Shown here: one piece after another, positions 32,271 to 41,584 of the stretch
How positions within the stretch are numbered: the first letter of the stretch is position 1
Layout: each line of letters begins with the position of its first letter
Assembly: GCA_044892525.1 (NCBI GenBank)
Contig: CM097886.1
Location: forward strand, 156,984,001-157,048,000
DNA: 64,000 nucleotides
From: Schmidtea polychroa
Taxonomy: Eukaryota
Reading direction: 5' to 3'
Notes under the pieces: model-generated
Databases searched by the model: none
What the model was told of the DNA's origin: nothing
The model's input: the letters and a program-made list of their open reading frames with translations, nothing else
Program-made: the position numbers and the translations under genes

Positions 32271-35200
32271 TTTGCAAAGGTCTAATTATTATTTTAATTT
32301 AGAAGTTTCATTATTATTATTTACTTAAATATTTATAAACTTAATTTCTATGTCAATTACATGATTTTCAACATTTTCATCATTTGCATGATTATTTTAA
32401 TAATTTTCTACATTTTCAATATTTTCACGATTTTCAACATTTTCATGATTATTTCAGGAACTTTTCATCGAATATTTTTCAAAGTATTATTTTCAAAAAA
32501 CTATTTTCAAATTATTNNNNNNNNNNNNNNNNNNNNNNNNNNNNNNNNNNNNNNNNNNNNNNNNNNNNNNNNNNNNNNNNNNNNNNNNNNNNNNNNNNNN
32601 NNNNNNNNNNNNNNNNNNNNNNNNNNNNNNNNNNNNNNNNNNNNNNNNNGACAAAATATTTTGTCCCCCTATGGGTACTGTTCACACTCAACAGGTTGCA
32701 AGGGTACTAGTCATGTTTATTATTATTGTTATACAATATGATGTTACTTAGACATTTGAAGGTTCAACCATGGTTACAATTTCTACATTTTGAAAACTCT
32801 AATTTGATTGGCTATCTCAATCGTTATAAATGTAAAAACAAAAGTAATTTAGTTATTAAGAAATTTATTTATTACTGATGATTTCAACAAGTAACACTGT
32901 TGAATATGAATGTATAAATCACAAAACACATTTGGTAACTTTATTATTTTGTCAATATTTTTATATATGTCATTTATAGCAAGGAAATCCTACTAGAAAT
33001 AAGGAAATATTAAGTCCAACCTATTCCGAAGATAAGCGTTCATTGAAATTTTTCAACACAGTTGAAGATTTTATAAATAATCATGATACTTACACTGATA
33101 AGGAAATCATAAATATTTTAAAAATTTTAAAACATTCCTCTATTCAATATTTGATTGATTTATTTAATTATGATAAATGCATTTTAAAGTTATCTAGTTA
33201 TTTAATGTATTTAGAAAAAACAGTGGTAAACAACGATTCACTGAATGAATGCTTTTGGAGTTGCATGTATTTAAGGTTGAAACCGGGATATAGTAGATTG
33301 ATTTATGAATGGATAGCAAAAGCCGATTTGATTGAAAATAAGCTAACGGAAAAACTGAACGATGTTAAGAAAAGGTATTTAACTTGTTCAATTTGTAAAG
33401 AAAATCAAGTTTCGGTTTTGTATTTACCGTGTGGTCACGTAATTGTTTGTTCTAAGTGTCACGAGAAGAATGTTCACAATTGTCAAGCCTGTTCAACACT
33501 GATTAATGAATATCATACTATATACATGTAAGTTCTCAATACAAATCAATACAATATCAAAGTCAAATGAATTATTACCATCCATAATGACGGTACTATA
33601 ATGTAGAAAATTTTCAAACATTGAATAATATGAAATCATCTTGGTAATTAAATATATTGGGTGCAACTACCAAATGGTGATGATATGATGAACGGATACC
33701 TATGAGTTCATCAAAATGGGAAAAAGATCTTCTCAAGAACCATCAAAATGCTCGAAAAGAAGAAGAAACCCTAACCAATATTTTAAAGTTGCCATTATAT
33801 GTTGCAGTAGTATTGGTTATTACTGTTTCGTAAATAAATGTTTTAATTTGTTTTTATAAATTTATTGTTTTATTCTAATACTTTTTGATTAAAACATTCA
33901 TTATTAATTCATTTTGTTTTAATATTTGTATTAATTTTTGAAATAGTGATATTTATATATATGGAAATTTACAATTCATGAAATATTCATAATGATGCTT
34001 TTCTCTGTCCATTCATTCTCCTCTGATATTACTGCCATAATCATCTTCAACATAATGCAAATATAATATTTCTAATGTCTTTGTTTATCATGACCATTTA
34101 TTGTAAAGTCTTTGTTAATTATGCACTTGTATGGCAAATTTATTAGTCATACAATCATATTATTTTTTCATGCCCTGTCATAATATTATTATTTTTAATT
34201 TTATTATTATGATTATTTTATTTAACAATACCATATAGCAAATTTTTAGGCTATTTAGTGAAAAGTACGTGGTTATTTTAAATATAGGAATTTCTTAAGT
34301 AAAATATTTCCAGATAAATTTACCAATTTAGTTAGAAATCCATGTTTTTGGTTGTACCATTTAATTAAAATATCCTTGGATTCATAACAATTTTTATATA
34401 GTTGATACATATACCAATTATTTAACTTGAAACATGACAGAATTCGTAGGTAATATAGAATATTTGTGTATTTTTTTTTAGTTAATTTATAAATATTATC
34501 TGACATTTTGATGAATCAATGCAATATACAACAAATTAATCAATAAAAACCATAGCATATTGTAAGTATTTATATATAGTCTGAATTTTTCCGACAAAAT
34601 ATTCTGTTCCCCTATGTGTATTTGTCGTAAGGGTACTGGTCATATTCAATATGTCGCAAGGGTATATTAATTAAGGCATATGTATATTAGTTAAACATTC
34701 TTAGGTAATTTAGTGAGAAATGCATAATCATTAATAACAACATATATTCATTGATAATTTTGGTAGAAAGTCTTTATCATTTGGAGTAAATTTCTGTCTT
34801 TGTTCGAGTCAAAAAAGGAGTCATAATAGAAACATGATCATTTGGTTATCATCTAACCAATTAAGGTGCTAATTAGTTAGAAATATAGGGTTACAATTCT
34901 TTTCTAATTTAATGAGATGATCATTGGGTGTAATATATCTTTGTGAGAAATATATGGTTAACATTTTTAAATAGGGATTTTTGAGTAACCAAAACAGGGA
35001 TATTTTGTGTGAATAATTTAAGAATATTGGTTAATTTTCTCTTTTTTAGTCATTTAAAATAATATTTAACAAAGGTAATTTAGCAAAATATCATTGAAAG
35101 ATTTATCCATCCAATAACAATATTCCTTCAATAGATTTTACCCTTTATTCAACCGATTTAATTTCTAGAAATCTAATTAAAATCATGAAATTCCTTCAAT

Positions 35201-38200
35201 AAAGATCAATTTTCTTTAGCTGTTGTCGATTTCCAACTTTTAAGTCATTATTTCTCAAGTTTTGTCACTGATATCCCCACAATGAATAAAATAACTTCTT
35301 AAATAAAATAATTTAAAGCAATAACCTTTGATATCAATCCCAATTAATTCTAAAGATTTCAAATACTTCATTGTCAAAACCAAGTAAATTGATCATTAAC
35401 CCTAAACGACTTAATAAAACAGTGGATAATTAATAAAAAACTGGTTCTAAAACATAAATCTGAATTACTGTGCAATAACATTCATCACAACCTAATAAAC
35501 CTCTAAGACGATATAATTTCACAGGAACTATAAATAATTCATAGCTAAATACTGACTATTTCCCTTTAAAATTTTACCAATACATTGTCGGTTTAAATAA
35601 AGATTTCAAACATTTCCACCTTAACCGATCCCTCACTAAATATTTCTACCATTTTAAACACCCCCTTAAAATCATATATTCCCATCTTAACTGAACCTTC
35701 ACTAAATCCAACCGACTTTAATATATCAGCCCTTTAATATATCAATTCTCTTAAAATCCATAGAAAATTCTTCAAATATGAATTTTATTTAATTGTTACA
35801 GACATCCTTCCATTGAAATAATTTCGTATCTAAGAGCCCACTAAAAGATCAAAATTCACTAAAATCAATATTTTCTACAAATATTTCACCACATTTACCA
35901 TCAAATACCTAACTAGAGGTGAAATATATTGATTGATCATAATTCTTCATCGATTCAGCCAATTATATAGCAATTATAACGTGATATATCTTTCAAAATC
36001 ATAAATTGCAGTTTTTTTTTTACAATAATTTTCTAGTAGATTTCAAATATATCATCATGATAAAATTAGCTGGTTACAACTTTAGATTTTCAATATTTAA
36101 AAGTTCATCAATATTCGTAGAAAATATATGAAAAAATTATTTAGTCAAATTCAATATCATTACAAAGTCATCATAAAAATTAAATAATAATAATCACTTG
36201 ATTATTGTAAAAACTCTAATTATTAACCTAACTGTCATTAAAAATAATTTTTATTTAAAAGTAAATTTAAAAACAAGTCAATAAAATATAGCAAATTATC
36301 AAGAAATTAATTAAAAATGTCTTAGAATTAACACTAAAACCTTAAATTTCAAAATATTCTTTCAATAATTCACAAAAAGGTTAGTAATAATGTTAGTAAA
36401 ATCCCGCTAACTCTAAAAATAACCAATGAATTTAATGCTAAATAATAACCACAAATTTGCCTAAATAAAATCATTAAAACACCCCAGTACCTTTACGACC
36501 AGTACCCTTACGAGCAGTACCGATTGAGAACAGTACCCATAGAGGGAGAAAATATCTTGTCGGATAAACTCAGAGTATATATAATAAAACGAATTAACAA
36601 TAACTCCATCAAATTGAATCAGTCAAATTAACACAAATTTTGATAAAAAATCTTATTCTAAAATGGTAAGAAGCGTAAAGTCGAAAGATAATTTTAATAA
36701 CACCGAAATAAATTAACAATATTATTCTCAGGTGGTAAGGATCTTAATTAAAGTGAGGAAATTATAAGAACTAACAATTGCTGTAAAGTATTTAATCGAA
36801 TTTGGTTTTGTTGTTTTATGTCTTTCGGTTATATTCGAGTAAGTTTTCGTGTGTCCCTTTTAACTTTGAGTGCTTATTTTCATTGAAAAGAGTAATGTAT
36901 CTTAAATTATCTTTAAGAATATTTGTTTTTGAAAATGAAATATTTAGTGTAAAATAGTAAATTTAATAATAAATTGCTAATATTAAAGGACTTAATCAAA
37001 ATTTAAAATAAGAATTTATCATAATTACTCAGTCAAATACCATTCACGGTTTCTTATGTAATAAAATAATCATTTGGAGATTAAATTCTTTATTAAATAA
37101 AAGTTTATCACATTATTAAAATATTTTAATTCGCTAGTAACTCATATAATAGAAATAATTTTATTTATATATCCTCATCACTTATAGCCGTCGATTCTCG
37201 ATTTCCCACTAATTATTATAAGTTATATCCTCCGACAAATATTTCTTTTAAAATTGTATTAAATATTTTTTATTAAAGTGATCATTTTTATGAAATTTTA
37301 TGAATTTTATGTAATTTTAAATAAATACAATTAATATATATCCATGCCACTTCTCAGTATATTTTCATTGACCTTCCATAATCCAATAATGAATAATTCT
37401 AACACTTATTTTAACCCTTTTGAATTTTATTATTAATATATCATAGAATAATAAATAATTTCCTCACTTTAATGAAGATCCTTACCACCTGAGAATAATA
37501 TTGTTAATTTATTTCGGTGTTATTAAAATTATCTTTCGACTTTACGCTTCTTACCATTTTAGAATAAGATTTTTTATCAAAATTTGTGTTAATTTGACTG
37601 ATTCAATTTGATGGAGTTATTGTTAATTCGTTTTATTATATATACTCTGAGTTTATCCGACAAGATATTTTCTCCCTCTATGGGTACTGTTCTCAATCGG
37701 TACTGCTCGTAAGGGTACTGGTCGTAAAGGTACTGGGGTGTTTTAATGATTTTATTTAGGCAAATTTGTGGTTATTATTTAGCATTAAATTCATTGGTTA
37801 TTTTTAGAGTTAGCGGGATTTTACTAACATTATTACTAACCTTTTTGTGAATTATTGAAAGAATATTTTGAAATTTAAGGTTTTAGTGTTAATTCTAAGA
37901 CATTTTTAATTAATTTCTTGATAATTTGCTATATTTTATTGACTTGTTTTTAAATTTACTTTTAAATAAAAATTATTTTTAATGACAGTTAGGTTAATAA
38001 TTAGAGTTTTTACAATAATCAAGTGATTATTATTATTTAATTTTTATGATGACTTTGTAATGATATTGAATTTGACTAAATAATTTTTTCATATATTTTC
38101 TACGAATATTGATGAACTTTTAAATATTGAAAATCTAAAGTTGAAACCAGCTAATTTTATCATGATGATATATTTGAAATCTACTAGAAAATTATTGTAA

Positions 38201-41200: not shown

Positions 41201-41584
41201 TTGGACTTAATATTTCCTTATTTCTAGTAGGATTTCCTTGCTATAAATGACATATATAAAAATATTGACAAAATAATAAAGTTACCAAATGTGTTTTGTG
41301 ATTTATACATTCATATTCAACAGTGTTACTTGTTGAAATCATCAGTAATAAATAAATTTCTTAATAACTAAATTACTTTTGTTTTTACATTTATAACGAT
41401 TGAGATAGCCAATCAAATTAGAGTTTTCAAAATGTAGAAATTGTAACCATGGTTGAACCTTCAAATGTCTAAGTAACATCATATTGTATAACAATAATAA
41501 TAAACATGACTAGTACCCTTGCAACCTGTTGAGTGTGAACAGTACCCATAGGGGGACAAAATATTTTGTCGGATAGACTAGGAG

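What the first reader, a model, noticed from the sequence alone, without database searches (positions are those of the whole stretch)
32878..41342. IAP-type RING gene duplicated as cargo in both arms
Seen: identical proteins ending in a C-terminal C3HC4 RING with a hydrophobic tail (HTIYM*), and a plausible 45 bp spliceosomal intron that restores a proper ATG. The SNPs I found lie outside this ORF. Known: this RING subtype occurs in IAPs, MDM2 and MGRN1 and in large DNA virus genes that modulate apoptosis or ubiquitination. Inference: a mobile element carrying a BIR-less E3 ligase that may manipulate the host, or a captured host gene.
Basis: partly seen in the sequence, partly recalled or inferred. 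Interest (0 to 1): 0.7.

Follow-up and report, generated by a model that had tools for sequence, protein, structure and literature searches.

The report
Mirror-doubled Polinton fragment carrying RING gene
The two identical RING genes are the mirror halves of a 14.7-kb folded-back fragment of a virus-like Polinton transposon; the gene is a regular extra gene of full-length Polintons in this animal genome, with over a thousand copies, and it likely tunes the host's cell-death (IAP) ubiquitin ligases, which is untested.

Summary
Observation confirmed. The two genes are mirror arms of one 14.7-kb palindrome (29335-44054) with Polinton/Maverick ends (5'-AGTAG, 6-bp target duplication) and no core genes. 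The duplication is a by-product of fold-back, and the lack of SNPs in the ORF is chance (P about 0.4).

The gene is not a fresh host capture. It sits as one copy between the polymerase and the terminus of full-length Polintons here, and a 23-nt motif of it occurs 1,252 times. It is under purifying selection (omega 0.41-0.51). Comparison of copies supports the intron; no spliced read was seen.

The RING is cIAP/XIAP/IDOL-like but has no BIR, so it is not an IAP. Dimer residues are kept while E2-facing residues differ, so it is likely a weak ligase or a dimer partner of IAP RINGs (inferred). Palindromes with broken RINGs still spread, so it is a passenger there.

IAP homologs in Polintons are already reported. 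This scan had found gene-less and polymerase-only palindromic Polintons on other DNA of this genome, but none with this gene. BIR-less helix-RING ORFs also occur in the Burro-like retrotransposons. New variant of a known kind.

The parts
29335..44054 (.). Whole palindromic, coreless Polinton/Maverick derivative (14,720 nt), ends 5'-AGTAGATGG
   Evidence: no core-gene remnant by tblastn, best E 1.8
29329..29334 (.). Left target-site duplication AGGAAC
   Evidence: 5 of 6 equal to the right one
44055..44060 (.). Right target-site duplication GGGAAC
29335..30445 (+). Left terminal repeat shared with polymerase-bearing Polintons (end type T1), with 16-nt and 234-nt subrepeats
   Evidence: 90-95% identity to T1 elements; subrepeats
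42938..44054 (-). Right terminal repeat (mirror)
   Evidence: 98.7% to the left one
30727..32516 (.). AT-rich repeat block of the arm; variable between copies
32650..36765 (+). Left inner arm
37455..41570 (-). Right inner arm (5 differences in 4116)
36766..37454 (.). 689-nt unpaired centre; the same junction is seen in other copies, others have shorter centres
32878..32934 (+). RING gene exon 1 (predicted, 19 codons)
32935..32979 (+). 45-nt GT..AG intron (predicted)
   Evidence: no spliced joint
32980..33531 (+). RING gene exon 2: helical N-domain, long helix, C3HC4 RING (33385-33492), aromatic tail
41286..41342 (-). Mirror exon 1
41241..41285 (-). Mirror intron
40689..41240 (-). Mirror exon 2
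32650..32715 (+). Visible part of a repeated motif (palindromic core GACAAAATATTTTGTC plus GGGTACT repeats) that marks the inner border of Polinton terminal repeats; further copies near 30737, 34583, 36522 and their mirrors
34700..36765 (.). Non-coding spacer, 64-85% like pieces of other repeats in the genome; not a decayed core gene

Best explanation
The element is a coreless, mirror-doubled derivative of a Polinton/Maverick, likely copied and inserted by full-length Polintons that share its ends, and its two RING genes are one Polinton accessory gene that likely acts as a weak ubiquitin ligase or dimer partner of IAP-type RINGs. Shown: the ends, 6-bp target duplications, lack of core genes, many dispersed copies, the gene's single-copy place beside the polymerase in full-length relatives, purifying selection, an IAP-type RING fold without BIR, and the spread of RING-broken palindromes. 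Inferred: (a) the arm was pieced together from Polinton end modules by recombination and then doubled by fold-back during strand-displacement replication, which also keeps the two arms equal; (b) polymerase and integrase come in trans; (c) the protein dimerises through its RING and tail and changes the turnover of host or Burro IAPs or another target held by its helical N-domain, favouring survival of the cell in which Polintons replicate; (d) in the palindromes the gene is mostly a passenger.
For: Ends and TSD: 29 of 35 elements with both ends in hand have a perfect 6-bp TSD, 2 have one mismatch (the window is one), 4 have none. Copies: 150 of 150 listed hits at 97-100% identity, mostly as facing pairs; 1,252 exact matches of a 23-nt RING motif, control 0. 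Helpers: of 20 stretches inside T1 ends, 16 hold Polinton core ORFs without RING, 3 hold the RING arm, 1 neither; terminal repeat 90-95% identical; one copy joins the RING arm to a 99% identical T1 polymerase piece, and one has a T1 left end, a T2 right end and a perfect TSD. Resident gene: two T3-ended ~20-kb elements with both ends carry ATPase, integrase, protease and polymerase ORFs plus one RING between polymerase and terminus; 15 of 19 further RING loci have a polymerase 3' part directly upstream. Arms kept equal: 19 of 21 elements differ at 0-3 of ~1800 places between arms, also in lineages over 100 changes from the window. Selection: omega 0.405 over 26 intact sequences; 0.46 in 31 full-length/array type and 0.51 in 20 palindrome type (2dlnL 18.6 and 6.6). 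Fold: pLDDT 85, best matches cIAP2, IDOL, XIAP, cIAP1 RINGs. The places of cIAP2's dimer residue V568 and tail aromatic hold L147 and Y182; the places of I590 and the following Arg hold A170 and S172 (V568E and L585A/I590A from PMC3172091). Passenger: 12 of 27 distinct palindrome-type sequences are frameshifted, stopped or lack a zinc ligand against 1 of 32 of the other type; 17 hits, most in T2-ended palindromes at separate sites, share loss of the last ligand.
Against: No transcript, splice or protein was shown. Ligase activity and dimerisation are untested; the role of the Arg position is recalled, and the cIAP2 numbering rests on a recalled length of 604. The 12/27 versus 1/32 contrast is biased: the full-length type was picked by protein score, which favours intact frames. 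Omega in palindromes is still below 1, which argues against pure passenger status (old branches and exchange with full-length copies may explain it). The RING points outward in full-length elements but inward in the palindromes, and its 3' flank differs, so the direct parent was not found. Two arms broke the equal-arm rule (62 and 18 differences). The capsid labels are recalled; Pfam and PDB gave no hit for those two ORFs.
Confidence: 0.72

Rival explanations
1. The palindromes are selected carriers: a satellite that supplies the RING protein to helper Polinton lineages (T1, T2) that lack it, or to the host's stem cells, and two copies raise the dose.
For: No RING in 4 T1 and 3 T2 polymerase-bearing elements examined while RING palindromes use T1 and T2 ends; omega 0.51 in palindromes; exon 2 diverges more slowly than the 3' flank in most comparisons (1/552 vs 21/921; 24/534 vs 76/894).
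Against: Frameshifted and ligand-less palindromes spread to many sites; T3-ended palindromes exist though T3 elements have their own RING; this scan noted gene-less palindromes in the same genome (unchecked); the 5' flank is as conserved as the exon.
Confidence: 0.15
2. The protein is an ordinary active E3 ligase with a target unrelated to apoptosis (for example a silencing or antiviral factor), bound by the helical N-domain.
For: No BIR; IDOL, MUL1, MEX3C and MDM2 RINGs score as well as IAP RINGs (Z 6.1-7.9); planarian Polintons are PIWI targets (PMC8532177, passages); N-domain has no known match.
Against: Profile search ranks cIAP2/cIAP1/XIAP first (E 2e-18 to 1e-14 versus 1e-11 for IDOL); E2-facing places differ from active IAP RINGs.
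Confidence: 0.3
3. A recent exact capture of an ordinary host gene, decaying neutrally.
For: It has a spliceosomal-type intron, as host-derived Maverick cargo does (10.1101/2022.07.12.499685, passages). A host parent cannot be excluded because searches stop at 150 hits.
Against: All 19 loci and 12 that I could place are Polinton-associated; family diversity reaches 83% identity with omega 0.41; whole-length relatives at 33-49% identity exist in other data sets.
Confidence: 0.05
4. A foldback-type cut-and-paste DNA transposon (MULE, CACTA, Galileo-like) with cargo, or an assembly artefact.
For: Long modular inverted repeats with subrepeats look like foldback elements (recalled).
Against: 6-bp TSDs and ends identical over 24 nt to polymerase/integrase-bearing Polintons; distinct flanks at dozens of sites, arm-shared private variants and nested LTR insertions.
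Confidence: 0.02

Closest known systems
Polinton/Maverick elements (adintoviruses); PMC8097293, PMC8502044, PMC6431247 (passages)
   Same: Long terminal inverted repeats, AG/AGT-type ends, 6-bp TSD, accessory region beside the core; IAP and Bcl2 homologs were reported in adintoviruses.
   Different: No core genes; almost wholly palindromic; the IAP-like gene lacks BIR and has an intron. Whether the reported adintovirus IAP homologs have BIRs is in supplements I did not see.
cIAP1/2, XIAP, BIRC7, IDOL C-terminal dimeric RINGs
   Same: RING fold (TM to target 0.84-0.88, rmsd 0.9-1.7 A for cIAP/XIAP rows), preceding helix, aromatic tail.
   Different: No BIR, CARD or FERM; a four-helix N-domain without a match; E2-facing residues differ.
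Burro1 B-IAP of planarian giant Ty3 retrotransposons (Lee et al. 2026, not held; known here only through PMC13465017 passages; Burro domains in PMC6431247)
   Same: Mobile-element-borne IAP-type RING, very high copy; a BIR-RING ORF of this kind is in the Ty3 nested in one copy.
   Different: B-IAP has a BIR and lies in an LTR element. The Polinton gene resembles instead a second, BIR-less 160-165 aa helix-RING ORF of these Ty3 elements.
Intron-bearing cargo of nematode Mavericks (wasp proteases, krma kinases; 10.1101/2022.07.12.499685, passages)
   Same: Intron-containing cargo gene next to a terminal repeat, exchanged between elements.
   Different: Different protein family; no horizontal transfer tested here.
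Snap-back/copy-back defective viral genomes (recalled; PMC13506859 seen only in a search listing)
   Same: Ends kept, core lost, self-complementary, helper-dependent.
   Different: Integrated and inherited; the arm is a mosaic, not a simple end fragment of one parent.

Membership tests
Polinton/Maverick | Terminal inverted repeats with 5'-AG(T) ends | tested here: met
   end motifs described in PMC8097293
Polinton/Maverick | 6-bp target-site duplication | tested here: met
   window 5 of 6; 29 of 35 elements perfect
Polinton/Maverick | Protein-primed polymerase B and integrase in the element | tested here: not met
   no remnant in 29335-44054; present in elements with the same ends. So: a non-autonomous derivative, not an autonomous member
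Polinton/Maverick | Packaging ATPase and adenoviral protease (relatives) | tested here: met
   Pox_A32 E 2.3e-7, Peptidase_C5 E 4.8e-6 in a RING-bearing full-length element; absent from the window element
Polinton/Maverick | Major and minor capsid proteins (relatives) | tested here: inconclusive
   427-aa and 360-aa ORFs at the expected places; no Pfam or PDB hit; labels recalled
Polinton/Maverick | Mobilisation in trans by a helper | not testable with these tools
   inferred from shared ends and recombinants
IAP (BIRC) proteins | At least one BIR domain | tested here: not met
   no PF00653 in the protein; exon 1 is only 14-19 codons
IAP (BIRC) proteins | C-terminal C3HC4 RING with aromatic tail | tested here: met
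IAP (BIRC) proteins | UBA domain before the RING | tested here: inconclusive
   a 2.1-bit, non-significant alignment to the cIAP1 UBA region; no UBA family among 18 rows, one weak CUE hit
IAP (BIRC) proteins | RING dimerisation | not tested
IAP (BIRC) proteins | E3 activity and suppression of caspases/apoptosis | not testable with these tools
   needs bench assays
Burro B-IAP | BIR plus RING inside a Ty3 LTR element | tested here: not met
Burro-like BIR-less helix-RING ORFs | Homology outside the RING | tested here: inconclusive
   whole profile E 1.1e-19 and 4.9e-16 versus 1e-11 for BIR-RING, shared RLD motif; N-domain alone 11.2 bits against a shuffled maximum of 10.6; tree unresolved, 70/67
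Spliceosomal intron | Spliced reads across the junction | tested here: inconclusive
   only contigs of runs not on record as RNA; no joint; comparative support

The most novel reading that the evidence does not exclude
Planarian mobile elements of two classes, Polintons and Burro retrotransposons, share a BIR-less helix-RING family that works as a decoy or partner of IAP ligases (host IAPs and Burro's B-IAP), and the coreless palindromes are satellites that deliver it to helper Polintons lacking it: an element-versus-element control of stem-cell survival, amplified to more than a thousand copies including tandem arrays of about fifty.
Probability: 0.15. Interest if true: 0.8.

Novelty: new variant of a known kind. 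Interest (0 to 1): 0.5.

Why it matters
A transposon-borne IAP (Burro1) is reported to protect planarian stem cells. A second element class carrying a BIR-less IAP-type RING in over a thousand copies gives a direct test of whether mobile elements converge on, or compete over, the same cell-death machinery; one RNAi reagent could hit the whole family. The palindromes also record how Polintons replicate (arm correction, end swapping). If the gene is silent, this is an ordinary non-autonomous repeat.

Tried and rejected
Expression: no RNA holder listed. Contigs of runs only guessed to be RNA cover the gene but show no joint at the intron; one X1 contig keeps the intron; one X2 contig has an A-tail behind 33857, about 19 nt after an AATAAA. 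None of this counts for or against. Single-sequence fold failed (pLDDT 38); the 18-row fold worked. The N-domain found no match: only generic helical bundles at Z 5.4 or less, no Atlas hit; whole-protein Atlas hits were RING-only. The word-index search gave 1 relative. IMG/VR gave 29 loci matching essentially the RING, none with Polinton core genes; phages none; metagenomes 1 contig of 1.3 kb without context. The 38-43 kb copies are not autonomous parents; they hold nested Ty3 elements. The first five polymerase loci fetched had other ends. The inner spacer is not a decayed core gene. The RING tree is unresolved (2 of 23 branches supported). Pairwise dN/dS from the window copy was significant in only 2 of 25 pairs; the tree-wide test carries the result. 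The first codon-model run timed out. The promoter scan is bacterial and uninformative. The variant that dominates the guessed-RNA contigs was not located: 0 of 11 marks in 146 sampled hits, at most 2 of 11 in 6 more. Literature searches listed no paper on this gene or on RING-bearing palindromic Polintons; PMC11410931 and PMC11161782 had no relevant passage; Kapitonov and Jurka 2006 and Lee et al. 2026 are not held, Repbase is not searchable here, and the supplements of PMC8502044 were not seen, so prior description is not excluded.
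Full report
Observation. The two ORFs are real and identical from ATG 32878 to the stop at 33531 and in mirror 41342-40689. They lie in inner arms of 4116 nt that differ at 5 places, none in the gene; the chance of that is 0.42 by my arithmetic, so it is no sign of selection. Exon 2 encodes 183 aa with a zf-C3HC4_3 RING over the Pfam cut-off. The 45-nt GT..AG stretch holds an in-frame TAG, so the ATG works only if it is spliced out.

The element. The arms are part of a palindrome from 29335 to 44054 with a 689-nt centre. Both ends read 5'-AGTAGATGG and the flanks are AGGAAC and GGGAAC. 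Among 35 elements for which I held both ends, 29 have a perfect 6-bp duplication, 2 have one mismatch and 4 have none; 13 more stretches lacked one or both ends and were not counted. [quoted passage not shown] The genome (781 Mb) is AT-rich and holds Burro-like giant Ty3 elements; a dugesiid planarian is my inference, no tool named it.

Copies and helpers. The protein search returned its maximum of 150 hits at 97-100% identity, mostly as facing pairs a few kb apart, 10 of them with a stop. The terminal 24 nt (type T1) occur 287 times. Of 20 stretches taken inside T1 ends, 16 held Polinton core ORFs and no RING, 3 held the RING arm, 1 neither. Four T1 elements share about 1.1 kb of terminal repeat with the window at 90-95% and nothing of the RING. 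The window element has no remnant of seven marker ORFs (best E 1.8). The same RING arm also occurs between other ends: T2 (103 exact ends; repeat only 73-75% like T1), T3 (1,583 ends) and a T1 variant. Three full T2 elements have core genes and no RING. One copy has a T1 left end, a T2 right end and a perfect duplication; another joins the RING arm to a 99% identical T1 polymerase piece. Integrase and ATPase are 92-100% alike across T1, T2 and T3 elements, so these are one recombining clade. Mobilisation in trans is inferred from this.

Why two copies. In 19 of 21 elements the arms differ at 0-3 of about 1800 places, also in lineages more than 100 changes from the window; two differ at 18 and 62. 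The arms are thus kept equal, as expected if one arm is copied from the other during protein-primed strand-displacement replication (mechanism recalled, inferred here). Several copies share the window's central junction and others have shorter centres. The 38-43 kb copies owe their size to nested Ty3 elements.

Where the gene comes from. A search with a distant relative brought up copies 84-90% identical to the window protein. These lie in T3-ended Polintons. Two ~20-kb elements with both ends and perfect duplications carry ATPase, integrase, protease and polymerase ORFs and one RING gene between the polymerase's end and the terminus. Of 19 further loci, 15 have a polymerase 3' part directly upstream. 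A 23-nt motif of the RING has 1,252 exact matches, control 0. In full-length elements the gene points outward, in palindromes inward with another 3' flank, so the arm is a mosaic and its direct parent was not found. The cassette is bordered by AAT runs and a repeated motif and also forms 1.02-kb tandem arrays; exchange at these repeats is a likely route (inferred). No host parent was seen, but searches stop at 150 hits. Outside this genome, six partial or whole relatives at 33-49% identity cover the N-domain too; they are unnamed and come without context.

Is it a working gene. Exon 1 is 42, 51 or 57 nt in 32 of 34 sequences with the intron pattern, while the intron ranges from 44 to 48 nt with fixed GT and AG (3 of 37 sequences lacked my pattern). 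Over 26 intact exon-2 sequences omega is 0.405, better than 1 by 2dlnL 20.1. Split by type and without frameshifted copies, omega is 0.46 for 31 full-length/array sequences and 0.51 for 20 palindrome sequences (2dlnL 18.6 and 6.6). Against a role in the palindromes: 12 of 27 distinct palindrome-type sequences are frameshifted, stopped or lack a zinc ligand, against 1 of 32 of the other type (biased, as the latter were picked by protein score). All 21 defective hits of 117 are in palindromic or palindrome-type arms, 17 sharing loss of the last ligand at separate sites. Broken copies therefore kept moving. Expression could not be tested (see Tried and rejected).

The protein. With an 18-row alignment the model has pLDDT 85: four helices, a 30-residue helix, then the RING. 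Foldseek's best matches are cIAP2, IDOL, XIAP and cIAP1 RINGs; VIA ties IDOL, BIRC7, MUL1 and MEX3C at Z 7.4-7.9, below its own caution level of 8; the profile ranks cIAP2, cIAP1 and XIAP first; viral matches are IAPs and giant-virus RINGs, over the RING only. There is no BIR. A UBA-like N-domain is only hinted (2.1 bits). PMC3172091 (passages) names V568 for cIAP2 dimerisation and L585/I590 for E2 binding. Counting back from the chain end (length 604 recalled), V568 and the tail Phe align with L147 and Y182, and the tail place is aromatic in all 16 of 18 rows that reach it; I590 and the next Arg align with A170 and S172. I read this as dimer-competent but possibly weak as a ligase, in the manner of MDMX (recalled). 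This step is inference.

Link to Burro. The Ty3 nested in one copy encodes a BIR-RING protein, like the B-IAP reported to protect planarian stem cells (known here only through PMC13465017 passages; Burro domains in PMC6431247 passages). Both nested Ty3 elements also encode 160-165 aa BIR-less helix-RING ORFs that share an RLD motif and score E 1.1e-19 and 4.9e-16 with a profile free of Burro rows, against 1e-11 for the BIR-RING; the N-domain alone is borderline and the tree is unresolved.

What is known. Adintovirus homologs of Bcl2 and IAP are reported (PMC8502044, passage; supplements not seen), and nematode Mavericks carry intron-bearing cargo beside a terminal repeat (10.1101/2022.07.12.499685, passages). 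Planarian Polintons are PIWI targets (PMC8532177, passages). This scan had noted gene-less and polymerase-only palindromic Polintons in this genome and nothing on this gene. Nine searches listed no paper on it; two key papers and Repbase could not be read.

Verdict. Element identity about 0.93; resident Polinton accessory gene about 0.9; real spliced gene about 0.8; action on IAP-type ligases about 0.45, as weak ligase or partner. New variant of a known kind, interest 0.5.

Noticed in passing
G000:C1:8681424-8731010, also C1:9.013-9.016 Mb and C2:188.140-188.166 Mb (L179, L186, L206, L207): Tandem arrays of a 1.02-kb unit (RING gene, border motif, AAT run), about fifty units at the first site, with open frames in the listed hits; polymerase ORFs lie on both sides.
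   Followed up: partly
L187:1498-1976: In two runs of different studies guessed to be RNA (X1, X7) the deepest contigs carry a divergent variant of the gene that is rare or absent in run X5 and not among the loci I sampled; possibly one expressed or domesticated copy. Contigs only, run type unknown.
   Followed up: partly
window 33702-33833 (+) and mirror: 43-codon ORF with a hydrophobic end, followed by AATAAA; found only in palindrome-type copies and often broken. Probably not a gene.
   Followed up: partly
L032:3685-4164, L034:3254-4432, G000:C3:109535799-109536293: Giant Ty3 (Burro-like) elements nested in two palindromes encode BIR-less helix-RING ORFs; one also encodes a BIR-RING protein.
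   Followed up: partly
L191:7905-8366 (-): Polintons of this clade encode a TBP-family ORF (PF00352, E 6e-15), as noted earlier by this scan.
   Followed up: partly
G000:C1:235.38-235.39 Mb, C3:32.53-32.55 Mb, C1:126.06-126.07 Mb, C1:139.68-139.69 Mb, C1:264.97 Mb: Polymerase hits occur as opposite-strand pairs, suggesting polymerase-only palindromes.
   Followed up: no
window 59160-60677 (+): Single 505-aa frame with an N-terminal C3HC4 RING and a likely beta-propeller (weak Vgb_lyase hit); looks like an intronless TRIM-NHL-type host gene, unrelated to the element.
   Followed up: no
window 49458-50914: G-rich 11-12 nt tandem repeat blocks (GGAAAGG...), the only GC-rich part of the window.
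   Followed up: no
L250:3096-6126: Copies with a different N-terminal part joined to the RING half (match starts at residue 105), tandem and inverted.
   Followed up: no
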